Source: an uncultured Gammaproteobacteria bacterium
GTDB taxonomy: Bacteria; Patescibacteriota; Patescibacteriia; Magasanikbacterales; GWA2-37-8
DNA: 64,000 nucleotides
NCBI GenBank assembly: GCA_964355175.1
Contig: CAYHBZ010000002.1
Span: 396,537 to 460,536, forward strand
Direction: 5' to 3'
Part shown: in pieces, positions 19,331-51,745 of the stretch
How positions within the stretch are numbered: the first letter of the stretch is position 1
How the letters are laid out: every line of letters begins with the position of its first letter
Position numbers and translations under genes: made by a program
Notes under the pieces: model-generated
Database searches by the model: none
What the model saw: the letters and a program-made list of their open reading frames with translations, nothing else
Told to the model about the DNA's origin: nothing

Positions 19331-19359
19331 TTGACAAAGTAGGATTTTTATGTTTTAAT
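19331..19359 (+). promoter_or_regulatory. sigma70-like promoter (TTGACA-17-TTTAAT) for high-GC gene 5
   Basis: TTGACA at 19331-19336. The 5'UTR is homologous to that of gene 4 (shared ttgttcttt...attaaaattttt). Confidence 0.4.
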
Positions 19360-19504
19360 AGTTCATTAGATTGTTCTTTTTAATCAATTCGCGCGACAAT
19401 TATAAATTAAAATTTTTCAATTTATAATCGTCGTGCGAATTTCAGTTTATCAATGACGGCCAGTCGGAGGTTCCGATTGGTTCAGCTCTTTCTGCGAGGT
19501 GAGC

Positions 19505-20074
19505 ATGGTTGATTTCAATCCCCCGGATCCAGTGGATCCAGAGAAGAAAAAGAAGCCTTCGTCGGCTGTGGAGACAGACCACAATTGGGAAGCCTGGGCC
19601 AACGATAATTCGGTCGATGACGGCAGTCATCCTCTGCCTGGTGAAGCCGAATACGTCGGACGGTCCGACCTTCCCATGACACGGGCACAGAAAGAGCGCA
19701 TCGCCGCGATCGTAGTCGGTACGGCCTTCCTGGTGTTGGTTTTCTTTGTCATCAATTTCGCTATCGGCAACAAGCTCAAGCATTCTGAAGCGGCCTCGTC
19801 CAACGAGGCTGGCAAGCAGAGCGCTCAGGCAAGTGCCGAAGTAGAATTGAAGGCAGAAGAAGCCGCCTCAGAGCAGGATCATACGGTCTCGCTGCCGGAT
19901 CACGCTTCGCAGGAAGATGATCTGGACGATGCTCGCGCGACCATCAAGGTCGTCGGTTTGGAGAAACGGCGCGTTCGAGATCCAGAGATGGAGCGGATCG
20001 CCGCAACCATCAAGATCGTGCCACTGCGTGTCAGTCCTGTCGCGGTACCGCTTCCAGCGGCCGCTACTCAGTAG
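19505..20074 (+). CDS. High-GC bitopic membrane protein with one TM helix
   Basis: ATG at 19505, alternatively the GTG at 19499. TM helix 'IAAIVVGTAFLVLVFFVINFAI'. No family recognised. Confidence 0.5.
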   Translation: MVDFNPPDPVDPEKKKKPSSAVETDHNWEAWANDNSVDDGSHPLPGEAEYVGRSDLPMTRAQKERIAAIVVGTAFLVLVFFVINFAIGNKLKHSEAASSNEAGKQSAQASAEVELKAEEAASEQDHTVSLPDHASQEDDLDDARATIKVVGLEKRRVRDPEMERIAATIKIVPLRVSPVAVPLPAAATQ

Positions 20075-20124
20075 TAGTCAAACATACTTTGAACCTAAAA
20101 GTGTGTGAGACTCCTGAACAGGAC

Positions 20125-23331: not shown

Positions 23332-23717
23332 AATTCATTTGTTGAGGCCAGTAGTTTTATTTGTTTTTTATAGATTAGTACTGGAACTAATATCACTAGC
23401 ACTGGTGTTGTCAATAAAAATATTATGTATATTATTGCTGGAAAACCTTTTAGATGTACAATGGGTAGTACAGGTAATAAAATTAAATTATACTCAAAAT
23501 TGTTAAATAACGCCTGGCCAAAAGTACATTCGTTTGATTCTTCCTTTCCCCAATCATAACAAGAGTACGTATTATTTTTATTTAAATTAGATAATTTTTG
23601 AGAGTTTTTATTTGGCCAAGAAATTATTAACGCTACTGTAAAAAATATTATTAAAAATGAGGCAAATATTTTATAAATTATAATTTCAGTTGCCGCTAAA
23701 GCCTGTTTGTTTAACAT
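23328..23717 (-). CDS. Small membrane protein, hypothetical
   Basis: Two hydrophobic helices. Overlaps its neighbours by 4 nt on each side. Confidence 0.3.
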   Translation of the reverse strand: MLNKQALAATEIIIYKIFASFLIIFFTVALIISWPNKNSQKLSNLNKNNTYSCYDWGKEESNECTFGQALFNNFEYNLILLPVLPIVHLKGFPAIIYIIFLLTTPVLVILVPVLIYKKQIKLLASTNEL

Positions 23718-24127
23718 AAAATTTTGTTTAAATCCCCATTTAAAACAGTCGGTTTCATCGCAATAATCTCTGTTTCGTAATAAGGCATTTTTGGAATTGG
23801 GTTCAAAAGATAAATTGGTTTTTTCAAAATATACGCAAAACCCATTTCTAAAAAACTATTACCGCCAATGTATCCAGGGATGTCGTGTTTTTCAATATTT
23901 AACACCAAAACTTTGTCGCATTTTTCAATTACACTCCAATGTTCGCGCATCGCGTCTTTTTCGTATTTGTGAAACAATTTTAATTTTTCTTGTTCGTCTT
24001 CACTTAGTCCCAAATATTGATTATTGAAACTAGAAGCAAACGCCTCATGTCCGGCGGCACGAAAAAAATCTTCTGCCTCTCGAGCTTTCTGTGCGTGTTG
24101 CATGCTGTGACAAATCGCTATCCTCAT
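23711..24127 (-). CDS. Nucleoside 2-deoxyribosyltransferase-like protein
   Basis: 'KCDKVLVLN...GYIGGNSFLEMGFA' pattern of this Rossmann-like family. Confidence 0.35.
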   Translation of the reverse strand: MRIAICHSMQHAQKAREAEDFFRAAGHEAFASSFNNQYLGLSEDEQEKLKLFHKYEKDAMREHWSVIEKCDKVLVLNIEKHDIPGYIGGNSFLEMGFAYILKKPIYLLNPIPKMPYYETEIIAMKPTVLNGDLNKILC

Positions 24128-24830: not shown

Positions 24831-24841
24831 ATTTATCAGAA

Positions 24842-25007
24842 TTATTAGACGGTATTTTTTTACATTGAACAAGCGAGGAAATAATTTGTGAGCCGTGAGG
24901 CGTGGCTAGCCCTGCTGTTTGAGGAGCCGAGCGACGAGTTCAGGGCTAGAGCCGAGTGGGTTGCAAATTATCCGAGCGGTTCACTGTAAAAAAATACCGT
25001 CTAATAA
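24842..25007. repeat. Long palindromic intergenic element, family M3, copy a
   Basis: 19 bp perfect terminal inverted repeats (ttattagacggtatttttt / aaaaaataccgtctaataa) flank a GC-richer core that is homologous to 35929-36104. Confidence 0.55.
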
Positions 25008-25028
25008 TTCGCAACTATGTAACTGTAA

Positions 25029-26141
25029 CTAGTAAAACACCGCCCAAATCCCCACAACCACCATAAAAGCATGAATAATCCAAAACCGCATCACAATCTT
25101 TTCTTCACTCCACCCCTTAAATTCAAAATGATGGTGCAACGGCGCCATTTTAAACAAGCGTTTTCCCAGCAAGCGGCGTGACATTATTTGTAAAATGACA
25201 ACCGCGGTTTCCAAATAAAAAATAAAACCAAAAAATGGAATGAATAAAGTTTTATCAATCGCGATCATATTTATCGCCAGCAATGCGCCTAATCCGAGCG
25301 ACCCCACATCGCCCATCTGAAAGCGTGCCGGTTTGACATTGAAATAAGTGTAAGCTAAAAGTGCTCCTGCCACCGTGGCATTGAGCGGTGCAAAAGCGGT
25401 GCGGCCTTCAATCCAGCTCACTACGGTAAGACCAACAAAAGTAATAATCAAAGATCCGCCAGCCAAACCATCCAGACCGTCCGCGATATTCACGGCGTTG
25501 GCCGTAAACATTACAAAGAAAATAATCAAAGGAATAATCAGCCAACTGACATCGAGGCGACCATCAAATGGTACGGCCATGGTATGCCAATGATTGTCTA
25601 ATTTAGTGTATACCCACCACGCCGCCACCGCGCCGGCGGCAAATTGTAATAATAATTTTTCATGCACCTGGACACCGCGTCCCGGATGTGAACCGAGGAT
25701 ATGAGCGAATCTTTTAAATACCGCCCATGGCAAAGTGATGATATGCCATAATCTGGTATACCAATGACGATGGACCTTGATCAGGGTAAAAGTTTGAGAA
25801 AGGGTGCGAAGACGACGCTTGGCCCCAAAAGTATTGAGCAGATCATCGGCCGCGCCGAGCAATGCGGCGATACCCATCACGCCTATTGGTACATAGGTAT
25901 ATTTACGACTCCAATTGAAAAGCATGGTGATGGCGGTGACTACTATTATTACCAGCAGCCCGCCCATTATTGGTGTGCCTACTTTTACTTGTCGGTCGCC
26001 ATAGAGAGTGAAATCATATTCAGAGCGACGGGTAATTTTGAATTTATAAAGTAATTTGGTCAGCAAGGGTGCCAACAAAAAAGAGAGGGCGCAAGCCCCG
26101 ATAAAAAACAGTAAAGATGTTTCTAAAAGACTAATAGACAT
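25029..26141 (-). CDS. mraY: Phospho-N-acetylmuramoyl-pentapeptide transferase
   Basis: 'NAVNIADGLDGLAGG' and 'MAPLHHHFE' motifs. Confidence 0.85.
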   Translation of the reverse strand: MSISLLETSLLFFIGACALSFLLAPLLTKLLYKFKITRRSEYDFTLYGDRQVKVGTPIMGGLLVIIVVTAITMLFNWSRKYTYVPIGVMGIAALLGAADDLLNTFGAKRRLRTLSQTFTLIKVHRHWYTRLWHIITLPWAVFKRFAHILGSHPGRGVQVHEKLLLQFAAGAVAAWWVYTKLDNHWHTMAVPFDGRLDVSWLIIPLIIFFVMFTANAVNIADGLDGLAGGSLIITFVGLTVVSWIEGRTAFAPLNATVAGALLAYTYFNVKPARFQMGDVGSLGLGALLAINMIAIDKTLFIPFFGFIFYLETAVVILQIMSRRLLGKRLFKMAPLHHHFEFKGWSEEKIVMRFWIIHAFMVVVGIWAVFY

Positions 26142-26190
26142 GGCTAAATATTAGCTTAAATTCAAGGAAAAATCAAGTTTTTGCGAAAAA

Positions 26191-27483
26191 CTAATCACTC
26201 CACTCCTTGGTTTGGCGCACCAATAATTTGGGAGCGTCGAGTGGTTCGGCCATCACTTCTTTGACAATTTTTTCCATGCGCATGCTCTGGGATCCTTTGA
26301 TGAGTACCACATCGCCTTGATTTAATTTTTCTTGAAGAAATTTTCCGGCCGTTTTGCTATCGGCAAAAGAGGCAATTTGATTATCATCCATTCCGGCTTC
26401 GCGCGCGGCGATAGCCGTATGTTTACTGGATTCGCCCACGGTAATCAGGAAATCTATTCCTAGTTCGGCAGTCTTTAAACCCACTTCACGATGAGTATTT
26501 TCCGTTTCTGATCCGAGTTCCAACATATCCGCCAACACCGTAATGCGTTTACCACCATCGTGGGGGGTGATTTTTGATAAAGTATAGAGCGCCGATTTTA
26601 CCGGCTCCGGACTGGAATTGTAGGTATCGTCGATGAGTAAAGTGTTTTTAATTCCATTGATAATGCACATGTGTCCAGGCAGTGGCTCTATTTTTCGAAG
26701 TGCGATAGCGGCTTCTACTACATTAATACCTAAGATATGTCCGACTGCTACCGCGGACAAAGCCGAAGGAATAAGGTGGACAGCGATTGCTCCCGGTAAA
26801 AACATCGGAACAATATTGCCGTCGTAATTTAGTTTGAAATTTAAGCCCGATGGCCAGCCGGTTTTTTCGTCGATAATAATATTGATATCAGTAGCCTGGA
26901 AAGTAGCACCATCTTTAAAACCAAAAGTGACCACTTCGGCTTTGGTGGTATTGCCATTTTGCATTACCATGTCATTGTCATAATTTAAAACCGCAAAACC
27001 ATCGCGTTGTAAATGTGAAATGATAATACGTTTTTCTTGAGCGATTTTTTTAATGGTTTTGAAAGTCTCGGTATGAGCGTGAGAAATATAAGTAAGCACA
27101 CCAATTTTACAAGGAGCAAGTTCGGTAAGGTAAGCAATATCTCCCGGTTTGTCAGCGCCCATTTCCAATACCAAAATTTCGGGATAATTTTTGTCGGTAA
27201 CGAGAAGCAGCTCAATGGCTTTTATTATCACCATTATCCAGCCGAACACTGAGCTATTTGGAGATTTTTCTACGCCAATAATTGCCAGCGGTATGCCAAT
27301 TTCGTTGTTGTAATTTTTAAAACTTTTGCGAACATTAAATTTGCTTTTCAAAACTAAATAGATTGCTTCCTTGGATGAAGATTTTCCAATCGAGCCGGTA
27401 ATGCCAATCACATCTGGATGATATTTCTGGATAATTTTTTTGGAGAGTGATCGTAGTATCAAATTTAAGAAATTTCTAAACAT
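26191..27483 (-). CDS. murF: UDP-MurNAc-tripeptide--D-Ala-D-Ala ligase
   Basis: Mur ligase P-loop 'GITGSIGKSS' and 'DDTYNSSPEP' (MurF DDSYNANP-like). Lies between ftsI and mraY. Confidence 0.75.
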   Translation of the reverse strand: MFRNFLNLILRSLSKKIIQKYHPDVIGITGSIGKSSSKEAIYLVLKSKFNVRKSFKNYNNEIGIPLAIIGVEKSPNSSVFGWIMVIIKAIELLLVTDKNYPEILVLEMGADKPGDIAYLTELAPCKIGVLTYISHAHTETFKTIKKIAQEKRIIISHLQRDGFAVLNYDNDMVMQNGNTTKAEVVTFGFKDGATFQATDINIIIDEKTGWPSGLNFKLNYDGNIVPMFLPGAIAVHLIPSALSAVAVGHILGINVVEAAIALRKIEPLPGHMCIINGIKNTLLIDDTYNSSPEPVKSALYTLSKITPHDGGKRITVLADMLELGSETENTHREVGLKTAELGIDFLITVGESSKHTAIAAREAGMDDNQIASFADSKTAGKFLQEKLNQGDVVLIKGSQSMRMEKIVKEVMAEPLDAPKLLVRQTKEWSD

Positions 27484-27499
27484 ATTCTATAGGGTTATT

Positions 27500-29227
27500 T
27501 TATTTATCATTTGGTACCGCGTAGTATTGCAGAGCAAAAGTAAGTAGATCACGAAATATTGGTAGGGTAGTCTGCTCCGCCCACTGACGCTGGGGCTCTT
27601 CATATTTTACCACCAAAACAAATTGTGGGTTAGAGGCGGGTGCAAAACCAGCAAAGGTGTGGTTGGTGCGATCCACACTATATTTGCCCGCTTCGGCAAT
27701 TTGAGCGGTACCGGTTTTGCCGGCCACATAATAGCCAGGGATCTTGGCAGCGCGGTAATGGTTTTCCACCACTGATACTAGCATACCACTAACTAACTTG
27801 GCAGTGCGAGCCGAGATTACGGATTCGGAAGTCAAAGGGGAAGTGATTTCTTTTTTCCCATCGGGATAGTGCACTTCCGAAATGATATATGGTTTTGGCA
27901 TGAGGCCTTGGTTCGCTATAGCAGAATAAGCGGAAGCGAGTTGCAATGGAGTAGCGGTGAGACCCTGGCCAAATGATCCTACGGCGGCATAGATCTGACC
28001 TTTTTTGTCCAGCGAAGAAATATCCGCACCAGATTCAGGAGATAGTTCAATGCCGGTTTTTTGGCCAAAGCCAAATTTTTTAGCGTAATCAGACAAGCGT
28101 TCGTGACCAAGTTTATCGGCCACAAACATCATCCCGGTATTTACCGAGTTTTCCAAGACCTGAGTCATATTTATAGTGCCGTAACATTTATTTTGAGCGT
28201 TGCGAATTGGGAAGCCGCCATACACGCGCACGCACGGATCGGTAAAAGTGGTGTTGGGTGAAATCAGGCCGAGGTCTATGCCGGCCGACATAGTGATAGG
28301 TTTAAAAACCGATCCTGGTTCATAAGGAGTAAAAATAGCGGTGTTGTTGTACTGTCGAATATCTTTTACTTGTGAATAATCGTTCGGATTAAAATCCGGC
28401 AGACTGCACATCGCTAGGATAGCGCCGGTCTTTGGATTCATCATTACCAGTGACGCGCTTTTGGCTTGGTATTCTTCCAAACCTTTTTGTAATAGCAAAC
28501 AAGCTTTGTATTCTAGGCTACGGTCTATGGTTAGCACTATGTCCGCGCCGTCTTGAGCGTTCACTTGAGAATGGTCTGACATGGCTACCAAACTACCAAA
28601 AGCGCCGCGTTCACCAATGGCAAAACCTTTGCGTCCGGATAAAATTTTATTCCAATAACCTTCGGTGCCGTAGCTGCCGATTTGTTCGGTGCCGCTGTCG
28701 TCTAGTCGGCAAAAGCCCAAAATTGGACCGGCTAAATTTTGTTCGGGATAATAACGGTATTCCTGTTCGTTGGCATAAATTCCCGGTAATTTTTCCGTTT
28801 TTAATTTTTCGTAAGTATCACTATCAATTTTTTTGGCAACCGGTTCGTAGAGGTCGTTACTTTTGGATAATTTTTTATTTAAAATTTCTCGATCGGTTTC
28901 TGGCAAGTTTAATATTTTTATTAATTTGTCCACGGTCATGGCTATCTCTTCCGGTTTTATATTTTTGGGTATAGCATAAATTAGATAATATTGGCGATTG
29001 ATAGCCGCCGGGAAAAGAGTTTTGGTGCGAGTATCTTGGAAAAATATTTCTCCGCGTTTGGGGTGAAGTTGTTTGTAAATTTCATGGCTGTTTAGTGCCA
29101 GAGTGTGATAATAATTATATTGTACTATTTGCAACAAAAATAATTTGATAATTATTATCAAAGCTACCGCTAAAAAGAAAACAGCGATAAAACGTAAACG
29201 GTTATCAGTTTTTTCTTTGTGCGTCAT
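27500..29227 (-). CDS. ftsI: Penicillin-binding protein 2/FtsI transpeptidase
   Basis: N-terminal TM helix. SxxK 'SVFKP', SxN and 'KTGTAQ' motifs. Confidence 0.85.
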   Translation of the reverse strand: MTHKEKTDNRLRFIAVFFLAVALIIIIKLFLLQIVQYNYYHTLALNSHEIYKQLHPKRGEIFFQDTRTKTLFPAAINRQYYLIYAIPKNIKPEEIAMTVDKLIKILNLPETDREILNKKLSKSNDLYEPVAKKIDSDTYEKLKTEKLPGIYANEQEYRYYPEQNLAGPILGFCRLDDSGTEQIGSYGTEGYWNKILSGRKGFAIGERGAFGSLVAMSDHSQVNAQDGADIVLTIDRSLEYKACLLLQKGLEEYQAKSASLVMMNPKTGAILAMCSLPDFNPNDYSQVKDIRQYNNTAIFTPYEPGSVFKPITMSAGIDLGLISPNTTFTDPCVRVYGGFPIRNAQNKCYGTINMTQVLENSVNTGMMFVADKLGHERLSDYAKKFGFGQKTGIELSPESGADISSLDKKGQIYAAVGSFGQGLTATPLQLASAYSAIANQGLMPKPYIISEVHYPDGKKEITSPLTSESVISARTAKLVSGMLVSVVENHYRAAKIPGYYVAGKTGTAQIAEAGKYSVDRTNHTFAGFAPASNPQFVLVVKYEEPQRQWAEQTTLPIFRDLLTFALQYYAVPNDK

Positions 29228-29228
29228 G

Positions 29229-30233
29229 TTAACTGATATTTTTTAGGAAATCTTTTAAGACCAGTTCTGGCTTTGCTCCGTTCCAAACAATTTCATGGAC
29301 AACTTTGGCTAGCGGCATGGTGACGCGGTATTTTTTGGCCAAAGCCAAAACGGTTTTGCAAGTTTCGACACCCTCTACGGTTTGGCCGATAGCTTTGGCA
29401 GCTTGTTCTTTGTTTAAATATTTTGGCAAACAGGCGCCAAAGCGACGGTTGCGGGAATGCTCGGACATCGCGGTGCCGATGAGATCGCCGAGTCCGGCCA
29501 AATCATAGACGGTTTTTTCGTGTCCGCCCATTTTTTTCACCAAGGTGGAAATTTCTTTGAGGGCGGAAACAAAAATTGCGGCCTTGGTATTCATCGGATA
29601 GTCATAACAGTCGCACAATCCGATAGCGATAGCATAAACATTTTTGAGAGAGCCGGCTACTTCGGTGCCAACCAAATCATCACTTTTTATCAGACGCAAA
29701 TTATCATTTTCCAAAACTTTTTTGGTGAGCGCGACGGCGGATTTGGCGCCGGCAATATTCATGGCGGTAAAATAATTTTTTACCATGTCGGTCGCTACGG
29801 CCGGACCGGAAATTACCACAATATTATTTCGCAGGTTGGATGGTAAATTGCGAGATATTATTTTGGAGACAGTGGATAGACTCATGCTGTCGAGCCCTTT
29901 GGAAGCATTAACGCAGACAGTTTTTTTGGAAAGATAAGGGGAAATTTTTTTTGTCACCTCGCCAATAAATCCACTCGGCACGGCTAAAAATATTATGTCA
30001 GTTTTGGAAACAGCAGTGAATAATTCTTTTTCTACTTTGATGTTTTTGGATAATTTTATTCCCGGTAAATATTTTTTATTTTCACCAGTTTGGCTGATCT
30101 GATTTAGTGGTTCTACATCACCTTCGTAGTTCCATAGTCTTGCTACGAAGCCATTGTTGGCAATTATATTTGCCAAAGCGGTGCCCATGTTGCCGGCACC
30201 GAGCACAGTGACTGAAATATTTTTTGTTGCCAT
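29229..30233 (-). CDS. gpsA: NAD(P)H-dependent glycerol-3-phosphate dehydrogenase
   Basis: 'VLGAGNMGTALA' Rossmann motif and GpsA-length protein. Confidence 0.85.
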   Translation of the reverse strand: MATKNISVTVLGAGNMGTALANIIANNGFVARLWNYEGDVEPLNQISQTGENKKYLPGIKLSKNIKVEKELFTAVSKTDIIFLAVPSGFIGEVTKKISPYLSKKTVCVNASKGLDSMSLSTVSKIISRNLPSNLRNNIVVISGPAVATDMVKNYFTAMNIAGAKSAVALTKKVLENDNLRLIKSDDLVGTEVAGSLKNVYAIAIGLCDCYDYPMNTKAAIFVSALKEISTLVKKMGGHEKTVYDLAGLGDLIGTAMSEHSRNRRFGACLPKYLNKEQAAKAIGQTVEGVETCKTVLALAKKYRVTMPLAKVVHEIVWNGAKPELVLKDFLKNIS

Positions 30234-30242
30234 ATTAGATTT

Positions 30243-31292
30243 TTAAACTTTATCTTTATTGGCCAACTGTCCGCAGGCGGCGGCGATATCCAGACCTTGT
30301 GAACGACGCACGGTGCAGACAATATCTTTGTCGTTCATTTTTTGTTGCCAATGTTTGATGGTTTCCATCGGAGTGGTACCAAAAAAATCATTACTGCTAG
30401 CCGGATTGTAAGGGATCAGGTTCACGCGTACGGAGCCCATTTTGTGAACTAGTTTTATGAGAGCGTCGAGATTTTTTGGAAAATCGTTGACGCCACCAAG
30501 CATGATATATTCAATGCCGATAAAATGCGTGCGACTAGGAAAGGCTTTGTGATAACGGCGCGCCCAGTCTACCAAAAATTCCAAAAAGTCACTGCGGTTG
30601 GAAGGCATGATGGAAGTACGGTTTTCGTTGATGGCGCTGTGGAGTGACAAAGCAAAACGGACCGGTGGCCAATTTTTATCATCTACCATTTTGTCCATCG
30701 TAGTGGCCAAGCCGACGGTGGATACTGTAATTTTGCGTGGACCCATTTTGGCGGCCTTGATCAAAATATTAATAGCCTGTTTTACATTGTTATAATTTAA
30801 GAGTGGCTCACCTTGGCCCATAAAAACAATGTTATCTACTTCACCTTCGTTATTTTTCCATAGTATTTGTTGCCAGTAGCGCATCTGATCCACAATTTCG
30901 CGATAAGTAAGATTGCGCGCAAAACCCATTTTACCGGTAGCACAAAAAGTACAGGCCATCGGACAGCCAACTTGAGACGATACACAAATAGTATAGCGCG
31001 GACGATCCCCAGGAATCATTTTTTTGCTCACACGCGGCATCAGCACACTCTCGATTACTTTGCCGTCACTAAATTCTAGCAAGGCTTTGCGAGTGCCGTC
31101 GATTTTGCTCTGCAATAATACTTTTTCTTTTACTGTCACCCAAGGAATGTCCTTGAGCTTGGCGCGTAGATCTTTGGATAGGGTAGTGATCTCTTCAAAC
31201 GAATTTATTTTTTTATCAAACCAGGATAAATAAATTTGTTGGCGGCGAAAGGCCGGTTCGTCTTTGAGGATTTCTTCTAAATTATCGTTCAT
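30243..31292 (-). CDS. rlmN: 23S rRNA/tRNA m2A methyltransferase RlmN (radical SAM)
   Basis: 'CPMACTFCATG' cluster. Confidence 0.85.
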   Translation of the reverse strand: MNDNLEEILKDEPAFRRQQIYLSWFDKKINSFEEITTLSKDLRAKLKDIPWVTVKEKVLLQSKIDGTRKALLEFSDGKVIESVLMPRVSKKMIPGDRPRYTICVSSQVGCPMACTFCATGKMGFARNLTYREIVDQMRYWQQILWKNNEGEVDNIVFMGQGEPLLNYNNVKQAINILIKAAKMGPRKITVSTVGLATTMDKMVDDKNWPPVRFALSLHSAINENRTSIMPSNRSDFLEFLVDWARRYHKAFPSRTHFIGIEYIMLGGVNDFPKNLDALIKLVHKMGSVRVNLIPYNPASSNDFFGTTPMETIKHWQQKMNDKDIVCTVRRSQGLDIAAACGQLANKDKV

Positions 31293-33793
31293 ATTTTTTT
31301 AGGTCTTAAGGCCAATCCGGTCAAGATCATAGCGGATATGGAAATGGTGATTAAAGCTAAGAATTGATTTTGATTTATTTTTACAAGGTGAAATATTTCT
31401 CTGAGCTGTGGTATCGACATTATGAGCGTGAGAGCTATGATTGTTAGTACCCAAATGCTCATCAACAGGAAATTATGTTTTATTTGTTCCCATTCGCGGG
31501 TGACCATTATTAGTGTGACCTGGGTGATGGTGAGCGAGGCAAAAGTAAAGGTGCGGGCCATATCAGTATCATGTCTATAAAGGGCGTGGTAGCAGTAAAA
31601 ACTAGCCGCCACGGCCGTGATAGCCAATCCTTGAATAATAACTTTTTTAAATAGTTTGGGATTTATTAGCGGTTCTTTAATTGGTCGGGGTTTTTCGGTC
31701 ATGAGGCCTTTGCGGGCTCGATCGCGTTCAAATCCTATTACGGAAGCGGGGTCGCAGAATAATTCCAGGAATACTACATTGATAGGGAAGAAGACCAATG
31801 GTTCGCCCAGGATCAGAGGAAATATAGCCATAGCCACTATCGGAATATGAAAAGAAAATAAAAAGACAAAAGCTTGGCGCAGATTATCATAGATGCGACG
31901 TCCTTCTTGTATGGCACTGACGATAGTATTGAAATTATCATCAAGTAAAACTATGCCGGCAGCGGCCCGAGCCACTTCGGTGCCTTTTTCGCCCATAGCG
32001 ATACCGATGTTGGCTTTTTTTAGAGCAGGGGCATCGTTCACTCCATCGCCGGTCATGGCTACAATTTCACCTTGTTTTTGCAGAGCTTCCACAATTTGAT
32101 ATTTTTGTTCCGGTTTGACACGAGAAAAAATATCGTGGTTTCGGACAATTTCGTCGAATTGATCGGCGGAAATATTTTCCAATTCATGGCCGATAATTAT
32201 TTTTTCGTTGTGTTTTAGTCCAATAGACACGGCGATATTTTTGGCGGTCAGATGATTATCACCGGTAATCATGATTACACGGATGCCGGCTTTTTGACAG
32301 ATGTCGATAGCTTCCTTCACATTAGCGCGCGGCGGATCGCTCATCGCTAGCAAGGCCACAAATTCCAGATCATATTTTTCAATTTGTTTTTTGTCTCCCA
32401 GATTTTTTTGGGCAATCGCGATTACGCGGTAGCCTTGTTCAGCCAAAGCTTCGTATTTTTTTTGGATTTCATCTTTTTCGATGACGGATAAATTTGATTT
32501 GGCAATAATAGATTCGGGAGCGCCGGCACTATATTGAACTGAAATTTTTTCAGGATTTTGAAATAGGTGATGAAGAGTCTTGGTGGTGGATTCAAAGGGG
32601 TGGGTCTCGAGATGAGCGTGTTCGTTGAAATGGTTGGTGGTATCAATGCCGAGACTGGTGGCAAATCTCTGCACTTCTACTTCCATCGGATCGGCGGCGA
32701 TGCGTTCGAGCGACAATAGAGTTATTTTCATTAATTCCTTTAGATCTTCTCTGTTGGTCGCAAAATCTTTTTTACTATAGTTTTTATTTTGATAAAAAAT
32801 TTCTTCCAAAGACATTTTGCCTTCAGTGAGCGTGCCGGTCTTGTCGGTGCAAATTACGGTAGCCGATCCCAAAGTTTCTACCATCGCCATTTCGCGCACC
32901 AAAGCTTTTTGTTTGGTCATGCGCCATACGCCCATGATGAGAAATACACTGAACACAATCGGAAATTCTTCCGGTATCAGAGCCATAGCCAAAGTGACCG
33001 AGCCGAGTAGTCCATTTACCAAAGAAGTTTTTAAAGCAATTAAAATACCGACCAAAAAAGAGGTGCTGATGGCGATGATAGCCACGCTCTTTATTAGTCG
33101 GCGAATATTTTTTTGTAGAGGAGTGTCCAAGCGTTCGATATTTTCCAATAAATTTCCCAGTTTGCCATAGGCAGTATGGGCGGCCGTGTCGGTGACCAAC
33201 AGGTAACCTTCGCCTTGAGCGATTAAAGTTCCTTGAAAAAGTTTATTTTCTTCGGTTATTTTTTGCAGGTCTTGGGTGGAATTTTTGGAAACTACTATCG
33301 ATTCACCGGTTAGCATTGATTCGTCTACCAATAAACCGACCGAATCTAGCAAAACACCGTCCGCCGGAGCTTTGTCGCCGGCATTTAGATACACCAGATC
33401 ACCCGGTACTAAATTTTTTATTTCAGTTTTTTGGATTTTTTCATCGCGAAATACGCGGCAAAAATCTACTACAATTTTATCCAATGCTTCGATGGCTTTG
33501 TCCGTGCGTCTTTCTTGAATAAATTCAATAATTAAAATTGGAACAATTGAAACCAGCAATATGATGGTATCCACATGGTCGCCCAAAAAAAGATAGGCCA
33601 AAGCGGCTATAAACAATAACAAGATCATCGGCTCGGAAATTATCTTGGCCAGACGCTTGAAACTACTTTGTTTTTTCTTGGCGGGACGCAAATTCAGACC
33701 GTATTTTGCCAAGGCAATTTTATATTGCTCAGAAGACAGGCCTTTGTATTTTGTTTTTAACGCTAAAACTGCTTCCAAAATTTCGGTATTCAT
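31289..33793 (-). CDS. P-type cation-transporting ATPase (type II, Ca2+/Mg2+-like)
   Basis: 'DKTGTLT' and 'GDGVNDAPAL' motifs. 834 aa with 10 TM helices. Confidence 0.85.
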   Translation of the reverse strand: MNTEILEAVLALKTKYKGLSSEQYKIALAKYGLNLRPAKKKQSSFKRLAKIISEPMILLLFIAALAYLFLGDHVDTIILLVSIVPILIIEFIQERRTDKAIEALDKIVVDFCRVFRDEKIQKTEIKNLVPGDLVYLNAGDKAPADGVLLDSVGLLVDESMLTGESIVVSKNSTQDLQKITEENKLFQGTLIAQGEGYLLVTDTAAHTAYGKLGNLLENIERLDTPLQKNIRRLIKSVAIIAISTSFLVGILIALKTSLVNGLLGSVTLAMALIPEEFPIVFSVFLIMGVWRMTKQKALVREMAMVETLGSATVICTDKTGTLTEGKMSLEEIFYQNKNYSKKDFATNREDLKELMKITLLSLERIAADPMEVEVQRFATSLGIDTTNHFNEHAHLETHPFESTTKTLHHLFQNPEKISVQYSAGAPESIIAKSNLSVIEKDEIQKKYEALAEQGYRVIAIAQKNLGDKKQIEKYDLEFVALLAMSDPPRANVKEAIDICQKAGIRVIMITGDNHLTAKNIAVSIGLKHNEKIIIGHELENISADQFDEIVRNHDIFSRVKPEQKYQIVEALQKQGEIVAMTGDGVNDAPALKKANIGIAMGEKGTEVARAAAGIVLLDDNFNTIVSAIQEGRRIYDNLRQAFVFLFSFHIPIVAMAIFPLILGEPLVFFPINVVFLELFCDPASVIGFERDRARKGLMTEKPRPIKEPLINPKLFKKVIIQGLAITAVAASFYCYHALYRHDTDMARTFTFASLTITQVTLIMVTREWEQIKHNFLLMSIWVLTIIALTLIMSIPQLREIFHLVKINQNQFLALITISISAMILTGLALRPKKI

Positions 33794-34000
33794 ATCGGAT
33801 ATTCTATCAGAAATAAGGGTATTTTACAAGGAATAAAAAATACCCTACCAAAGGTAAAGTATTTTTATAATAATGCCTATTTTACCGAGATCTCCTGTTA
33901 AATTTTTACCAATATATTTGATAAAGATTTAGCATTGGGAGATCTTGGTGGACCGCGACCTCCCAACGCCAGACTTGCGTCGGTCTGTCGGTAGGCGAGT

Positions 34001-34354
34001 CTACCAGGCGCCCATGGGCTGAGACGTAGGCTTGGCGACTTCCAGTTCCTGGGCCGTGGCCAGACGCGCTCCGGCACAGGTGCCCAGCACCCACTGGATC
34101 ACGAGCAGGTCACCGACCTTGGTCTCCTTGGGGACGAACAACGGGAAGCCGCTGCGGTCCTCGTCGGCTCCGCGCTTGTGTTCGTTCTCTGCGAAGTAGC
34201 GATGGCCGCTCTTGTCGCTACGTCCGAGCACGTAGAAGATCGGAGTCTCCGGATGCTGGTCGGCGTTGTTGCTGTCGCGACGGATGAGTTTGCCTTGGGG
34301 TACAAAGATACCGACACCGGTTTCGAGCCGGAAGACACCGTGAAAGATAAGCAT
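34001..34354 (-). CDS. High-GC hypothetical protein (117 aa)
   Basis: High-GC ORF with RBS 'aaggac'. Has its own TTGACT-17-TATATA promoter at 34401-34429 (minus strand). Confidence 0.45.
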   Translation of the reverse strand: MLIFHGVFRLETGVGIFVPQGKLIRRDSNNADQHPETPIFYVLGRSDKSGHRYFAENEHKRGADEDRSGFPLFVPKETKVGDLLVIQWVLGTCAGARLATAQELEVAKPTSQPMGAW

Positions 34355-34400
34355 TGATTGTCCTTGAGTTGCATCAACCGAAACGCTCGGCTGATATGAT

Positions 34401-34429
34401 GTATATACACTGATTTTAGCAAAAAGTCA
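34401..34429 (-). promoter_or_regulatory. sigma70 promoter TTGACT-17-TATATA (minus strand)
   Basis: On the minus strand, TTGACT corresponds to plus-strand 34424-34429 and TATATA to 34401-34406, with a 17 nt spacer. Confidence 0.45.
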
Positions 34430-34502
34430 ATGGTAAATTGGTTTTTTGAGATAATAAAATAAAAAATCCCCTATTTTATTAGGAGATTTTAGTTTTAATT
34501 TT

Positions 34503-35912
34503 TTAAGAAAAATATTTTTTTTCCAGCGATTTTATTTTTTCACTCAGTTGGTCTATGGAAAGTGGTGGATTAATCTGAGATTTTTCTAGTAACTCGATTA
34601 TTGTTTTTAGCAGTTGTTTGGCGCCGGGTATAATATGATTATTACGATCTTCCGCGTATGATAAGCGCAGATAGCCACTTCCGCCACTGCCAAAATCGCT
34701 GCCTGGTATGGCCGCAAAGCCTTTTTCTTGTAGTAGCCAGCGGCTGAAATCTTTATCATTTTTTATTTTTAGATCTTCAGCCACATATTTTAATTTCAAA
34801 ATGTTTTCAATATTTGGAAACAAATAAAAAGCGCCCTCGGCTTGATTTGGTAAGATAAAAGGGGAGAGCAGTGAGAGAGATTCGAATAAAAATTTACCTT
34901 TTTTCTCGTACTCGGCAAAATCGGTTTGTAAAATTGGTTCAATTTTTTCGCGTACCGATGGATAGTGGCATCCGTCCAAATCGACATCGCCAAAAATCGT
35001 GCCCGCCACAATCTGGTTGGCGCGACTGACACAACTCCATTTATTTACTGCGAGTTGTCCGAAAATTTCTATGAGCCACTCGGGTGCTATCACAAATCCC
35101 ACACGCCAGCCGGTCATCGCATAATTTTTGGAACAACCATTGAGATTGATAGTAAAATCAAGCATGCCCGGCACCGATAAAATGCTAAAATGCTTGCGAC
35201 CGTCAAAAGTAATTTGATCGTAAATGTCATCAAACACCACCATGAAGCGATATTTTTTGGCCAGTTCGGCCACAGCGCGCAATTTTTCTTCGCCCATCAT
35301 CATGCCGGTCGGATTTTGCGGCGTGTTGAGAAAAAGTAATTTTATATTTTTATTTTCCAATAAGATTTTTTCCAAATCCGATACATTAAAATCCAAAGTT
35401 TTATCATCCGGATTTTGTCGGGCTGTCCATTCCAAAGGTTTTTTGCGCGTATAAAAATTAGAGAGCGAAGCGTAGATAGGATACGAAGGATTTTGGACAA
35501 TAATTTGATCATCTTTATTCACCAAAGCTTGCAAAGATAATTCAATTGCCGGTTTGCCGCCCGGTTCAAGCAAAATATTTTCTTTTTTAATTTCCACCCC
35601 ACGCGTAGTCGTCCAAAATCGCGCAATGTTTTCGCGCACCTGCGGATACCCCAAGAAATGCCCATATTTGGTCTGCTTATCTCGAAGAGCCTGAATCGCC
35701 ACCTCAATAATCGGTTCCGGAGTCTTTGGACCAGTATCCCCAATATGAAATTTATAAACAGTCAAAAACTTTTTCGAAGCCTCCACTTTCGCCACCTCCA
35801 CCCCAAAAGCAAACGAAGATTCATCCCCCAAAAAATTCAAATCACGATTATAATCCACCTTCGGAGACATTTCATCATTATTCAAAAATTTCGCAGACAA
35901 TTTCATATCCAA
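34503..35912 (-). CDS. Class I/II PLP-dependent aminotransferase
   Basis: AAT-like fold features. 469 aa. Confidence 0.7.
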   Translation of the reverse strand: MDMKLSAKFLNNDEMSPKVDYNRDLNFLGDESSFAFGVEVAKVEASKKFLTVYKFHIGDTGPKTPEPIIEVAIQALRDKQTKYGHFLGYPQVRENIARFWTTTRGVEIKKENILLEPGGKPAIELSLQALVNKDDQIIVQNPSYPIYASLSNFYTRKKPLEWTARQNPDDKTLDFNVSDLEKILLENKNIKLLFLNTPQNPTGMMMGEEKLRAVAELAKKYRFMVVFDDIYDQITFDGRKHFSILSVPGMLDFTINLNGCSKNYAMTGWRVGFVIAPEWLIEIFGQLAVNKWSCVSRANQIVAGTIFGDVDLDGCHYPSVREKIEPILQTDFAEYEKKGKFLFESLSLLSPFILPNQAEGAFYLFPNIENILKLKYVAEDLKIKNDKDFSRWLLQEKGFAAIPGSDFGSGGSGYLRLSYAEDRNNHIIPGAKQLLKTIIELLEKSQINPPLSIDQLSEKIKSLEKKYFS

Positions 35913-35928
35913 TTTAAAGTATAAAGAA

Positions 35929-36104
35929 AATAAATATTTCCCCTGAACGAGCCGCTGAAAATCCGAGCAAATAATTTGTGAGCCGACGAGGCGTCTCTGG
36001 CCGTGCTGTTTGAGGAGCCGCGCGACGAGTTCACGGCCAGAGTCTCGACGGGTTGCAAATTATGCGAAGATTTTCACAGGCGAGAGAAGGGGAAATATTT
36101 ATTT
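35929..36104. repeat. Long palindromic intergenic element, family M3, copy b
   Basis: 16 bp perfect terminal inverted repeats (aaataaatatttcccc / ggggaaatatttattt). Core 'aaataatttgtgagccg...ctgtttgaggagccg.gcgacgagttca...ggttgcaaattat' shared with copy a. The inner stem changes (ctagccctg/cagggctag versus ctctggccgtg/cacggccagag) with pairing kept. Confidence 0.55.
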
Positions 36105-49879: not shown

Positions 49880-51129
49880 CAAACTTCGCGCCTTTACCGG
49901 ATAGAATGCGTCCGCAAAATTTTGAAGAATTCTTTGGGCAGGAAGAAATTGTGGGCAAAGGGAAAATGCTCAGGAATCTAATTGAATCGGATCAATTGTC
50001 TTCGATAATTCTTTGGGGACCGCCGGGAGTGGGCAAGACTACTTTGGCGCAAATTATTGCCAAACAAACCAAAGCCCATTTTGTTTCCATTTCGGCCGTA
50101 ATGGGCGGCAAAGACGAATTACGCAAAGCCGTGGAAGATGCCGAATATCATCGTCGTTTGGAAAATAAACGCACGGTCTTATTTATTGATGAAATCCATC
50201 GCTGGAACAAAGCTCAGCAGGACGCACTTTTGCCGTATGTAGAAAAAGGTTTAATAATTTTGATTGGCGCTACTACTGAAAATCCTTCTTTTGAAATTAT
50301 CGGCGCTTTGCTTTCGCGCTCGCGGGTTTTTATTTTGAAATATTTGGAGAAAAAAGATTTGGTAAAAATTATCAATCAAGCTTTGGCTGATAAAGAGCGG
50401 GGGCTTGGAAATCTGAATATTAAAATTGAGAAAAAAGAAATAGAGATGCTGGCGGATTTGGCTTCAGGTGACGCGCGCGCCGCGCTCAATAGTCTAGATT
50501 TGGCCGTGAAATCCAAAAGTAATGTCGCCAACAAAGCTGTCATCCCGAACAAAGTGAGGGATCTTATAAAAATTACCGCCGAAGACATCAAAGAGGCTCT
50601 ACAAAAAACTCATTTGGTTTTTGATAAAAAAGGCGAAGAGTTTTATAATCTAATTTCAGCCTTGCATAAAAGTATGCGTGGCAGTGACGCGAATGCGGCA
50701 ATTTATTGGCTCGCTCGCATGCTCGAGGGCGGAGCAGATCCACTATATATCGCGCGTCGGGTATTGCGTTTTGCCAGCGAAGATATTGGTATGGCTAATA
50801 GCGAAGCGATGATCCAGGCCAACGCCGCCTATGATGCCTGTCATAAAATTGGTTTTCCGGAATGCAGTGTGCATTTGGCACAGGCGGTAGTGTATTGCGC
50901 AAAATCCAAAAAATCTAATTTGCTATACAGTGCCTACAACGAAGCCAAAGTGGATGCGCTGGCCACTTCACATTTGGGTGTGCCTATCCATCTGCGCAAC
51001 GCGCCGACGAAATTTATGAAAGAGATTGGGTATGGCAAAGATTATAAATATAATCCGGATTTTGATGAGCCGGTGGAGCAGGATTATTTGCCGAAGGAAT
51101 TGAAAGGGAGGAAGTATTTCGGAAAATAG
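49876..51129 (+). CDS. rarA: Replication-associated recombination protein A (AAA+)
   Basis: '[11 protein letters not shown]' and MgsA-type C-terminal domains. Confidence 0.85.
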
Positions 51130-51142
51130 CGATAAAAAAATA

Positions 51143-51318
51143 AAACAAAAAAATACCGTGCAATTTTTACCTGATAAAAGTTCGCATAATTGGCTATAAA
51201 TTTTCGTTACGGCTCTAAGGGTAGAGCCGTTGCCCTACGGGGCACCACTCAAATTTATTTAACGCCAATTAGGGGCTCACTTTTATGTGGTAAAAATTGC
51301 ACGGTATTTTTTTGTTTT
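51143..51318. repeat. 176 bp palindromic element with 30 bp perfect terminal inverted repeats between the convergent rarA and tsaE genes
   Basis: aaaacaaaaaaataccgtgcaatttttacc at 51143-51172 pairs with its reverse complement at 51289-51318. The inner core (ggctctaagggtagagcc, gttgccctacggggcacc) is hairpin-rich. Confidence 0.5.
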
Positions 51319-51745
51319 ATTTTTTTATCGTTATTTTCCTCTGATTATCTTCGGAATGCTCGATGGTGATGGTTGTGGTTTTTTTGTCTTTTAATAGGTT
51401 GGCAATTTTTTCTGGCCATTCTATGATGCAGAGTGTGTCAGGCTTGCCGAGATAATCTTCTGCGCCAATTTCGATTAATTCTTGCTCGTCTTTCAGGCGG
51501 TAGGTATCAATGTGTACTAGAGTTTTTATTTTTTCTAAATCTACCGGATAGGTATTTAGTAGGGTGAAAGTGGGGCTGGTGATTTCATATTTTATTTTTA
51601 ATCCGATAGCCAAGCCTTTTACTAGGGTGGTTTTACCGGCGCCAAGCTCGCCTTCCAATAATAAAATATCGCCACCTTGTAGCTGGGTGGCTAATTTTTT
51701 ACCGAATTCAGTGGTTTCCTCGGTTGTTTTGGTGATTATTTCCAT
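51317..51745 (-). CDS. tsaE: tRNA t6A37 biosynthesis ATPase TsaE
   Basis: 'GELGAGKTT' P-loop and YjeE-size protein. Confidence 0.75.
   Translation of the reverse strand: MEIITKTTEETTEFGKKLATQLQGGDILLLEGELGAGKTTLVKGLAIGLKIKYEITSPTFTLLNTYPVDLEKIKTLVHIDTYRLKDEQELIEIGAEDYLGKPDTLCIIEWPEKIANLLKDKKTTTITIEHSEDNQRKITIKK

What the first reader, a model, noticed from the sequence alone, without database searches (positions are those of the whole stretch)
24842..36104. Two copies of a ~170 bp long-palindrome element with terminal inverted repeats and covarying internal stems
Elements at 24842-25007 and 35929-36104 share a conserved GC-richer core (aaataatttgtgagccg...ctgtttgaggagccgNgcgacgagttca...ggttgcaaattat). 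Each is flanked by 16-19 bp perfect terminal inverted repeats. Their inner stems differ but stay complementary (ctagccctg/cagggctag versus ctctggccgtg/cacggccagag). Both lie between co-oriented minus-strand genes. They could be MITE-like mobile elements, bidirectional terminators or RNA processing sites.
Basis: seen in the sequence. Interest (0 to 1): 0.55.

Follow-up and report, generated by a model that had tools for sequence, protein, structure and literature searches.

The report
Mobile long-hairpin repeats with conserved tip
Two ~175-bp DNA palindromes wedged between housekeeping genes of a tiny "candidate phyla radiation" bacterium are recent insertions, and they belong to an undescribed family of hairpin elements whose purine-rich tip also turns up in distant bacteria and in phages.

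Summary
Window 24839-25010 (el1) and 35928-36104 (el2) are long imperfect palindromes. They share a ~79-bp core, have unrelated but complementary outer arms, and show compensatory changes in the inner stems.

Both are lineage-specific insertions. Relatives with 82-97% identical MraY have only 1-3 nt (49 unrelated nt in one) where el1 adds 198 nt, and el2 adds 192 nt at a site that is also empty in relatives.

The element is non-coding and has no Rfam match. It folds better on the + strand, where GAG outnumbers CTC 10:0 and G outnumbers C 48:30, because G.A mismatches lie on both arms.

The tip (CUGUUUGAG-GAGCCGNGCGAC-GAGUU) reads as a helix with two tandem G.A pairs. The same tip occurs in other CPR genomes at unrelated loci. 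A shorter in-frame version (GUYUGAG-CGAAGC-GAGUU) caps variable hairpins in the same genome and in many phage contigs, including an inovirus intergenic region.

The arms of orthologous copies differ between genomes yet stay perfectly complementary within each genome, which indicates concerted evolution of the two arms.

The elements lack conserved termini, target duplications and U-tracts, so they are neither classical MITEs nor terminators. My best reading is a new variant of mobile palindromic repeat that acts as a single-stranded hairpin. The enzyme or function that reads the tip is unknown.

The parts
24839..25010 (+). el1: complete long hairpin (172 nt). The + strand is the strand that folds best.
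   Evidence: RNA dG is -84 (+) versus -68 (-) kcal/mol. DNA dG is -47.8 versus -42.9.
24831..25028 (.). The 198-nt segment present here but absent from relatives (the insertion containing el1). It consists of 8 nt, the hairpin, and 18 nt.
   Evidence: L057 (97% MraY identity) has TAA-T-ATG at this junction, L058-L060 have 3 nt, and L061 has 49 unrelated nt. Three samples with an identical MraY all carry el1.
24839..24864 (+). el1 outer 5' arm (GAATTATTAGACGGTATTTTTTTACA). It pairs with 24985-25010 and is unrelated to the el2 arms.
24985..25010 (+). el1 outer 3' arm (TGTAAAAAAATACCGTCTAATAATTC).
   Evidence: It shares the 13-mer AAAAAAATACCGT with an el3 arm.
24880..24896 (+). Conserved 5' stem block AAATAATTTGTGAGCCG (invariant U.G / G.U pairs and the GUGAGCC motif). 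Its partner is GGGTTGCAAATTAT at 24958-24971.
24915..24942 (+). el1 tip: CTGTTTGAGGAGCCGAGCGACGAGTTCA. It reads as an irregular helix: U.U, U.U, U.G, tandem G.A/A.G, G-C, tandem G.A/A.G, G-C, C-G, then triloop CGN. N is the only variable base.
   Evidence: for the match. The pairing is read directly from the sequence. The same tip occurs in L008, L018, L019 and L004-L006.
35928..36104 (+). el2: complete long hairpin (177 nt). It has the same architecture as L008, including the purine-rich internal loop GAACGAGCC / GGCGAGAG.
   Evidence: dG is -86 (+) versus -75 (-) kcal/mol.
35907..36098 (.). The 192-nt segment present here but absent from relatives (the insertion containing el2). The transketolase stop codon lies inside the outer arm.
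   Evidence: L061/L062 have TAA-T-ATG and L059 has TAA-TT-ATG. The L065 contig ends inside el2.
36006..36033 (+). el2 tip: CTGTTTGAGGAGCCGCGCGACGAGTTCA.
51121..51339 (-). el3: a third long palindrome (61-nt arms, 95% complementary) with a different core (family B: two small GC hairpins, GUGAGCC motif on the - strand). It probably belongs to the same superfamily but not to the el1/el2 family.
   Evidence: Orthologues in L079/L080 have co-varying arms. A paralogue, el4, lies at L067:14446-14628.

Best explanation
el1 and el2 are copies of a small, non-coding, hairpin-forming mobile DNA element: a foldback or palindromic repeat. It is made of three kinds of part. The first is a conserved GC-richer core. 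The second is a tip built from tandem G.A mismatches that forms on one strand only. The third is a pair of locus-specific outer arms.

Shown: both copies were inserted into 1-3-nt gene junctions of a Magasanikbacteria (CPR) chromosome after it split from relatives that are 82-97% identical. Related copies sit at unrelated loci in other CPR genomes and break assemblies there.

Shown: in orthologous palindromes of the same genome set, the arms change between genomes but stay perfectly complementary within each genome.

Inferred: the element works as a single-stranded hairpin, most likely ssDNA exposed during replication, repair or transfer. An unidentified enzyme that reads the tip copies it to new sites; a hairpin-specific HUH-type nuclease or Rep is my leading guess. 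The arms are kept complementary, and may be extended, by intrastrand template switching, that is, by copying one arm from the other.

Effects on the host are probably small. The copies inside operons lack terminator features.
For: Insertion polymorphism at both sites.

A third member in another genome lies between map and ruvX, so it is not syntenic.

Identical copies sit at contig ends in Saccharimonadales SMAG_U2409, next to unrelated housekeeping genes. A contig also breaks inside el2.

There is no coding capacity and no Rfam hit.

The strand asymmetry cannot arise in a plain palindrome: CGAG 5 versus CTCG 0-1, GAG 10-13 versus CTC 0-2, G 47-50 versus C 30-37, and dG is 11-18 kcal/mol better on +.

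There is covariation in the stems and in the helix that closes the tip, across 19 independent instances: 74% paired versus 46% in shuffles, covariation score 0.72 versus 0.24, 0/500.

In that closing helix G.U pairs (6 cells) are no more common than A.C (4 cells). This fits DNA-level maintenance of complementarity rather than selection on an RNA.

Concerted arm evolution is seen at the rarA/tsaE site. At the smpB site the same core occurs in opposite orientation with different perfect arms. One arm is orthologous to the native flank of an element-free relative.

The short form of the tip lies on the coding strand, presumably the packaged one, of the intergenic region of an integrated inovirus. 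It also lies next to the AT-rich and iteron region of a phage replication gene. GCGNAGC mini-hairpins are documented at ssDNA-phage and plasmid origins (PMC13037366; bioRxiv 10.1101/2023.12.30.573655).
Against: No conserved terminal sequences, no target-site duplication, and no transposase, Rep or reverse-transcriptase gene was found in the ~84 kb of this genome that I could read. The mobilising activity is therefore hypothetical.

The long tip is rare. It was found in 2 of 185,579 species genomes and in 2 contigs of the JGI metagenome collection (241 million records).

Near-perfect conservation of a 25-nt tip across CPR classes could also mean a cellular function rather than selfish spread.

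The 'empty' smpB site could be a deletion remnant rather than a pre-insertion state.

The long tip of el1/el2 lacks the GCGAAGC mini-hairpin. el1/el2 also lack the CTTGAT-containing second module seen in the phage and Saccharimonadales copies.
Confidence: 0.5

Rival explanations
1. The elements are genes (or gene-like modules) for a structured small RNA read from the + strand. The rod-like hairpin presents a conserved tip rich in tandem G.A pairs, with K-turn or loop-E flavour, to a conserved protein or RNA partner. Copies are gained and lost by horizontal transfer.
For: Covariation in the stems. Invariant U.G/G.U pairs and + strand folding 11-18 kcal/mol better under RNA parameters. A tip identical across distant lineages. 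L019 lies downstream of an fmt-like gene in the sense orientation and is followed by a canonical terminator. Most phage copies are in sense orientation to their neighbours. The phage and Saccharimonadales copies carry a second module whose U-rich, pyrimidine and purine tracts could form an RNA pseudoknot or triple helix.
Against: In el1, el2 and L008 the folding strand is antisense to tightly packed operons. Only 8-27 nt separate the element from the flanking genes, and no convincing promoter or terminator is present. At the smpB site the core occurs in both orientations. G.U pairs are not enriched over A.C in the variable helix. The outer arms are perfect Watson-Crick and evolve in concert by indels, which is a DNA-level signature. 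There is no Rfam family.
Confidence: 0.22
2. The hairpins are cis-acting replication or recombination signals that are useful to whatever replicon carries them. Candidates are a single-strand initiation (priming) site, an HUH-Rep nick site (origin), or a hairpin recombination site like CTX-phi attP or integron attC. Under this reading they are signals rather than selfish repeats.
For: The short tip contains d(GCGAAGC), an extraordinarily stable DNA mini-hairpin known from ssDNA-phage complementary-strand origins, RSF1010 ssiA and N4 promoters (PMC13037366). It is also known from the phi-Lf origin (SL3; 10.1101/2023.12.30.573655). The tip lies at the end of an inovirus intergenic region, on the same strand as the phage genes, where homology between prophage contigs ends. 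It also lies next to iterons in a phage replication gene. CTX-phi RstA nicks between G and T in the apical loop of an origin hairpin (PMC4439123), and the tip begins NUG|UYU. The phage and Saccharimonadales copies are followed by CCTTGAT, which resembles the CTTG/ATA nick motif of pC194/phiX174-type Reps as I recall it (from memory, not tested).
Against: A chromosome has no obvious need for such signals between mraY and its neighbour. Close relatives do without them. The G4-type arrangement, with CTG 3' of the hairpin, is not met. Phage fs1, which shares part of that intergenic region, lacks the motif in the ~260 nt downstream of the shared segment that I read. el1/el2 have neither GCGAAGC nor CTTGAT. 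No Rep or integrase gene was seen nearby.
Confidence: 0.2
3. They are transcript-level punctuation for the host operons, acting as terminators, RNase III sites or mRNA stabilisers in the minus-strand mRNA.
For: Position between genes of one operon. The minus-strand RNA also folds strongly (z about -8 to -9). Phage intergenic palindromes such as the T7 RNase III sites are a precedent (PMC11707656).
Against: No U-tract and no terminator call. Relatives express the same operons with 1-3-nt junctions. The conserved mismatches favour the opposite strand. The tip is conserved in contexts of either orientation.
Confidence: 0.06

Closest known systems
REPINs / REP elements mobilised by RAYT (HUH Y1) transposases; ERIC/IRU; Neisseria Correia elements; Rickettsia palindromic elements
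   Same: They are short, non-coding, dispersed intergenic palindromes that fold as long hairpins. They show insertion polymorphism between strains, are tolerated inside operons, and are thought to act in single-stranded form (REP/RAYT).
   Different: In those families the arms or termini are the conserved part, and the copies within a genome resemble each other over their whole length. Here the tip and core are conserved and the outer arms are locus-specific. There is no GTAG-type REP head, no TA duplication (Correia), and no RAYT or transposase gene seen. The tip is shared across phyla and with phages.
ssDNA hairpin signals of rolling-circle and ssDNA replicons: sso/ssi sites, G4 oric, phi-Lf ori SL3, CTX-phi ori(+) and attP, integron attC
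   Same: They are strand-specific folded DNA hairpins with conserved unpaired or mismatched bases and variable stems. The short tip carries a GCGNAGC mini-hairpin. It is located in an inovirus intergenic region and beside phage iterons.
   Different: The window copies lie in a chromosome between housekeeping genes with no Rep or integrase nearby. The G4 layout (primer start CTG 3' of hairpin I) and the attC layout (conserved outer R sites, variable centre) are not met. The long tip lacks GCGNAGC.
TIGR-Tas stem-loop guide arrays of CPR bacteria and phages (PMC12045711)
   Same: These are palindromic stems flanking loops with short conserved motifs, and they occur in CPR bacteria and phages.
   Different: TIGR units are tandem arrays next to a Nop-domain tas gene, and their loops hold variable spacers. 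Here the copies are solitary, no Nop-domain protein was found in the ORFs scanned, and the loop is invariant.
Long-palindrome arm homogenisation by intrastrand template switching (quasipalindrome correction)
   Same: The arms differ between genomes by substitutions and indels but are perfect complements within each genome.
   Different: That is a mutational process, not an element family. Here it appears to operate around a conserved mobile core.

Membership tests
MITE (miniature inverted-repeat transposable element) | Terminal inverted repeats conserved among the copies of a family (the transposase binding sites) | tested here: not met
   The el1 and el2 outer arms are unrelated. The termini of the inserted segments share nothing.
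MITE (miniature inverted-repeat transposable element) | Target-site duplication flanking the insertion | tested here: not met
   Comparing filled and empty sites shows simple insertions between the stop codon and T-ATG, with no duplicated bases.
MITE (miniature inverted-repeat transposable element) | Small, non-coding, multi-copy, present/absent between relatives | tested here: met
MITE (miniature inverted-repeat transposable element) | An autonomous partner encoding a transposase with the same ends | tested here: inconclusive
   None was found in the window or in 20 kb of flanks. The rest of the ~1-Mb genome could not be read.
REP / REPIN-RAYT | Conserved REP arms with a 5' GTAG-like head; a RAYT gene in the genome | tested here: not met
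   The arms are not conserved and there is no GTAG head. The presence of a RAYT gene could not be tested genome-wide.
Intrinsic (bidirectional) terminator | GC-rich hairpin immediately followed by a U-run on the transcribed strand(s) | tested here: not met
   There is no terminator-like site at el1 or el2. el1 has its T-run 5' and its A-run 3'. el3 and el4, by contrast, have A-run / hairpin / T-run and sit between convergent genes.
Any Rfam 15 RNA family | Covariance-model match | tested here: not met
   No match at the gathering threshold, nor at E<=10 on the elements. No match on the homologous loci either.
G4-type single-strand initiation signal | Primase start triplet CTG a few nt 3' of the mini-hairpin; a cluster of three hairpins | tested here: not met
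   In G4 the CTG at 3996-3998 lies 3' of GGACGGCGAAAGCCGCCGTCC. Here the conserved NUG lies 5' of the tip helix.
Integron attC site | Conserved outer R''/R' boxes with a variable centre; array of cassettes next to intI | tested here: not met
   The conservation pattern is the inverse: conserved centre, variable ends. The flanking genes are core housekeeping genes.
TIGR-Tas stem-loop array | Tandem units adjacent to a Nop-domain Tas protein; variable dual spacers in the loop | tested here: not met
   The copies are solitary and the loop is invariant. No Nop domain was found in the window ORFs scanned. The definition comes from PMC12045711.
Rolling-circle double-strand origin (pC194/phiX174/phi-Lf type) | Rep nick motif CTTG/ATA near a Rep-binding hairpin; a cognate Rep gene | tested here: not met
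   CCTTGAT follows the hairpin in the Saccharimonadales and several phage copies. It is absent from el1 and el2, as the sequence shows. No Rep gene is nearby.

The most novel reading that the evidence does not exclude
The conserved purine-rich tip (NUGUYUGAG...CGAGUU) is a portable single-stranded-DNA signal, either an origin/nick site or a priming hairpin read by a widespread HUH-type Rep or primase. It travels between ssDNA phages, dsDNA phages and the chromosomes of ultra-small CPR bacteria. Once it has landed, it seeds the growth of a long palindrome by copying one flank into the other. That would make it a new class of Rep-parasitic 'origin-hairpin' mobile element, and a mechanism that builds long perfect palindromes out of host sequence.
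Probability: 0.2. Interest if true: 0.85.

Novelty: new variant of a known kind. Interest (0 to 1): 0.62.

Why it matters
CPR/Patescibacteria genomes are among the most compact known, and I found no CPR-specific literature on mobile non-coding repeats. Finding elements that slip into 1-3-nt gene junctions shows that these genomes are still being invaded.

These elements invert the usual conservation pattern of palindromic repeats. The tip is conserved, while the arms are locus-specific and evolve in concert.

The same 18-25-nt tip occurs in CPR bacteria, in high-GC and low-GC phage contigs, and in an inovirus intergenic region. This points to one recognition event shared across very different replicons. 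If that event is nicking or priming on folded ssDNA, the family links rolling-circle replicon origins to chromosomal repeat families.

The family also offers a natural system for studying how long palindromes are built and kept perfect. On the practical side, the elements break assemblies and create spurious ORFs in metagenomes.

Tried and rejected
Rfam at gathering and permissive thresholds gave nothing.

BLAST of el2 against annotated phages and plasmids gave no match.

A viral scan with the long tip returned only GC-rich coding coincidences, EEPGDE-type.

Protein coding of the core was considered, because the long and short tips differ by exactly two codons and begin with NUG. I rejected it because conservation is at nucleotide level, including wobble positions, and the downstream frames are unrelated.

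Hammerhead, other ribozymes and group II intron domain V (suggested by GUGAGCCGU) have no model support.

A K-turn or box C/D reading of the tip fails, because the 3-nt bulge is not adjacent to the G.A pairs.

TIGR-Tas arrays do not fit.

The promoter and terminator scans were uninformative.

About 54 of the 78 viral hits to the short tip belong to two phage lineages. In one lineage the motif lies inside a replication gene. In the other it lies at an inovirus end. These were not counted as independent hairpin instances.

I searched for the complementary arm of the inovirus copy at the other prophage end and found none.

Phage fs1 lacks the motif in the stretch I read.

Literature searches for the motif strings found nothing relevant.

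One contig look-up returned no DNA.

Full report
**1. The observation**

Window 24839-25010 (el1) and 35928-36104 (el2) are long imperfect palindromes.
- They share a 79-bp core at 87% identity.
- The 28-nt pattern CTGTTTGAGGAGCCGNGCGACGAGTTCA occurs exactly twice in the window, against zero expected.
- Either strand folds far better than shuffled sequence, with z of -8 to -10 under both RNA and DNA parameters.
- The outer arms of the two copies are unrelated in sequence but complementary within each copy. The inner stems differ by compensatory changes.

**2. Host and setting**

The window is bacterial. It carries mur ligases, mraY, a PBP, gpsA, rlmN, a P-type ATPase, transketolase, hpf and murB.
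- The closest proteins are from Candidatus Magasanikbacteria.
- The window is part of ENA contigs of 463,850 and 953,736 bp.
- el1 lies between mraY and an ATE_C-like gene. el2 lies between transketolase and an aminotransferase. All four genes are on the minus strand.
- The elements fill the intergenic spaces almost completely, leaving 0-27 nt to the neighbouring genes. The el2 arm contains the transketolase stop codon.

**3. Both copies are insertions**

- el1 site: a relative with 97% identical MraY (L057) has TAA-T-ATG at this junction. Relatives at 87% identity have 3 nt, and one at 82% has 49 unrelated nt. The window has 198 nt.
- el2 site: the 87% and 82% relatives have TAA-T(T)-ATG where the window has 192 nt.
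- Three samples with an identical MraY all carry el1, and one contig ends inside el2.
- The filled-versus-empty comparison shows no duplicated target bases, and the two inserted segments share no terminal sequence.
- No transposase, reverse transcriptase, Rep or Nop-domain gene was found in the window ORFs tested, or in the gene calls for the 10 kb on either side.

**4. Relatives of the element**

An exact scan with the tip found a full homologue in Magasanikbacteria Ike-150m-44 (L008).
- It lies between map and ruvX, so it is not syntenic with either window copy. It shares the el2 architecture and shows blocks of fully compensated stem changes, CCCCU/AGGGG versus UAAUC/GAUUA.
- With only three sequences, 12 pairs already carry changes on both sides, and none of 500 shuffles reaches the covariation score.

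The same tip caps different hairpins elsewhere.
- It occurs in a Saccharimonadales genome, as identical copies at contig ends beside gltX, umuC and other ordinary genes.
- It also occurs in two metagenome contigs, L018 and L019.
- No Rfam family matches any of these.
- In the exact form scanned (a 20/21-mer), the long tip is rare: 2 of 185,579 species genomes, and 2 contigs of the JGI metagenome collection (241 million records).

**5. Anatomy and strand asymmetry**

Read as a hairpin, the so-called loop is an irregular helix. In order it has U.U, U.U, U.G, tandem G.A/A.G, G-C, tandem G.A/A.G, G-C, C-G and a CGN triloop. N is the only variable base. This pairing is read directly from the sequence.

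Further (C)GAG motifs lie opposite each other on both arms.
- As a result the + strand carries CGAG 5 times against CTCG 0-1, GAG 10-13 times against CTC 0-2, and 47-50 G against 30-37 C.
- The + strand folds 11-18 kcal/mol better than the - strand. With DNA parameters the gap is about 5 kcal/mol.
- A plain palindrome cannot show this asymmetry, so the element is built to fold on one strand.

In el1, el2 and L008 that strand is antisense to the flanking operons. In L019 and L018 it is in sense to a neighbouring gene.

**6. More palindromes in the same genome, and how the arms evolve**

- Just upstream of the window (L071:8876-9150, between smpB and a divergent gene) lies a 275-bp palindrome. 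Its tip is CTGTTTGAG-CGAAGC-GAGTTC. This has the same frame as el1/el2, with the inner 12 nt replaced by a 6-nt GCGAAGC-type cap. GCGAAGC also occurs on both arms.
- A second family (el3 at 51121-51339; el4 at L067:14446-14628) has another core. It has A-run / hairpin / T-run polarity and lies between convergent genes.
- At the rarA/tsaE site, the el3 orthologue in a 91% relative has a nearly identical core. Its arms differ by substitutions and indels, yet they are perfect complements in each genome.
- At the smpB site the picture is more varied. The 97% relative has no element. The 92% relative has the same core (about 98% identical) in the opposite orientation, with different perfect 33-bp arms. 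One of those arms is orthologous to the native sequence of the element-free relative. The 89% relative has yet another hairpin.
- Across 19 independent tip-capped hairpins, G.U pairs in the closing helix are no more frequent than A.C.

Together these results point to complementarity being maintained at the DNA level, with one arm copied from the other, around a conserved core. Whether the arm is created from the local flank at insertion, or the 'empty' smpB site is a deletion remnant, cannot be decided here.

**7. The tip outside CPR**

The short tip GTYTGAGCGAAGCGAGTT occurs in 78 viral contigs.
- Two lineages account for about 54 of these.
- In one lineage the motif lies antisense inside a phage replication gene, directly beside an AT-rich stretch and iterons.
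- In the other it ends the intergenic region downstream of zot in an integrated Vibrio inovirus carrying Rep_trans, DUF1293 and Zot. It is on the same strand as the phage genes, which is presumably the packaged strand, and it sits where homology between contigs stops.
- The complete phage VAI2 has the variant GTTTGAGCGCTAGCGAGT at the equivalent place, next to rstR and rstA.
- At least 15 further contexts, with GC from 0.34 to 0.63, are hairpins with unrelated stems capped by the identical tip.
- Over 19 instances the closing helix is 74% paired against 46% in shuffles, with a covariation score of 0.72 against 0.24, and 0/500 shuffles reach it.
- The neighbouring genes are unrelated: terminase, capsid, a symporter, DUF6261.
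- Several phage copies, and the Saccharimonadales copies, carry a second module about 45 nt downstream. It contains CCTTGAT, a U-rich tract, and a hairpin with a pyrimidine 5' arm and a purine 3' arm. el1 and el2 lack this module.
- Rfam does not match these hairpin elements either.

**8. Interpretation**

Shown:
- The elements are real and structured.
- They fold preferentially on one strand.
- They were recently inserted.
- They belong to a family whose only universal part is the tip.
- They are not terminators.
- They are not classical MITEs, REPs, attC sites, TIGR units or G4-type priming sites. Each defining feature I could test failed; see the membership table.

Inferred:
- The elements act as a folded single strand.
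- That strand is probably DNA. The arms behave like DNA palindromes, orientation relative to transcription is not fixed, and the short tip sits in ssDNA-phage and origin contexts.
- GCGNAGC mini-hairpins and apical-loop nick sites are documented in such contexts (PMC13037366; 10.1101/2023.12.30.573655; PMC4439123).
It could be a Rep or HUH nuclease, a primase, a recombinase, or an RNA-binding protein.

I give 0.5 to a selfish, mobile hairpin element. I give about 0.2 each to a + strand structured RNA and to a replicon-serving ssDNA signal. I give little weight to mRNA punctuation.

**9. Limits**

- I could read only about 84 kb of the ~1-Mb genome.
- The covariation statistics for the full-length element rest on three sequences.
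- The pairing scheme of the tip is read from sequence, not measured.
- The resemblance of CCTTGAT to Rep nick sites is recalled from memory and was not tested.

Noticed in passing
window ~8100-8900, 9030-10300, 10500-12150, 18200-20100, 34000-34400, 56400-58800: Islands of 52-75% GC in a 40% GC genome. They carry ORFs with no Pfam hit, except for Cys-rich Dicty_CTDC repeats in 10642-12063. The island at ~18200-20100 has GC-rich counterparts at the syntenic place in relatives (L057, L058, L061), so that one at least is not an assembly chimera; the other islands were not compared.
   Followed up: partly
window 51121-51339 (el3); L067:14446-14628 (el4): A second family of long palindromes: 40-61-nt near-perfect AT-rich arms and a core with two small covarying GC hairpins (loop ACCCUU conserved). 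Both copies sit between convergent genes with terminator-like polarity. The el3 arms contain the last codons of rarA and tsaE. el4 directly follows an 82-aa GIY-YIG gene.
   Followed up: partly
L071:8876-9150 (about 240-520 nt before window position 1): A 275-bp palindrome with the short tip and three GCGAAGC heptamers, filling the divergent smpB promoter region. Its outer arms abut the native TTGATT-17-TAAAAT smpB promoter. Relatives have no element, an inverted copy, or a different hairpin at this site.
   Followed up: yes
window 23328-24127: Two small ORFs (129 and 138 aa, no Pfam hit) lie between the ATE_C-like gene and murC. They are absent from the 97% relative L057, and L061 has a single 113-aa ORF there. 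This is a second variable spot next to el1.
   Followed up: no
window 2839-7815: A 1658-aa ORF with no Pfam domain. It is conserved in relatives at 1527-1569 aa, within a block of unannotated genes.
   Followed up: no
L087, L094, L095, L106, L110, L124, L144; L004-L006: A second module follows the tip-capped hairpin in phage and Saccharimonadales copies: CCTTGAT, a U-rich tract, and a hairpin with a pyrimidine 5' arm and purine 3' arm (loop ~AUCAAGA). The U-tract mirrors the stem pattern, so a pseudoknot or triple helix, or a CTTG/AT Rep nick site, is conceivable.
   Followed up: partly
L113:7485-7502 and L160 (Vibrio phage VAI2): The short tip ends the zot-proximal intergenic region of Vibrio inoviruses and is preceded by AGTGCGC, the first 7 nt of the Vibrio dif XerC arm as I recall it. 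Homology between prophage contigs stops within ~10 nt after the motif.
   Followed up: partly
L085:2511-2528: The short tip lies antisense inside a phage replication-protein gene, 12 nt from an AT-rich stretch and four or five iterons (tttagtttctaaagt). About 45 near-identical contigs carry it.
   Followed up: partly
L071:6508-6613, L073, L075, L077 (downstream of rplT): A conserved ~100-nt hairpin (GGTCCTGAGAGTGTTTGGTA / TACCGAACACTCCTAGGACC) follows the infC-rpmI-rplT operon in all the relatives examined. Small GIY-YIG genes nearby are also followed by a conserved hairpin (CAGCGGGTCGG/CCGACCCGCTG).
   Followed up: no
L106:3881-3947: A type II hammerhead ribozyme (72 bits) lies in the same GC-rich viral contig that carries a tip-capped hairpin.
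   Followed up: no
window 14847-14903 and L071:8323-8432: Palindromes of the TGTCATTCCGAG...CTCGGGATGACA type occur after genes. They look like a separate terminator-like repeat.
   Followed up: no
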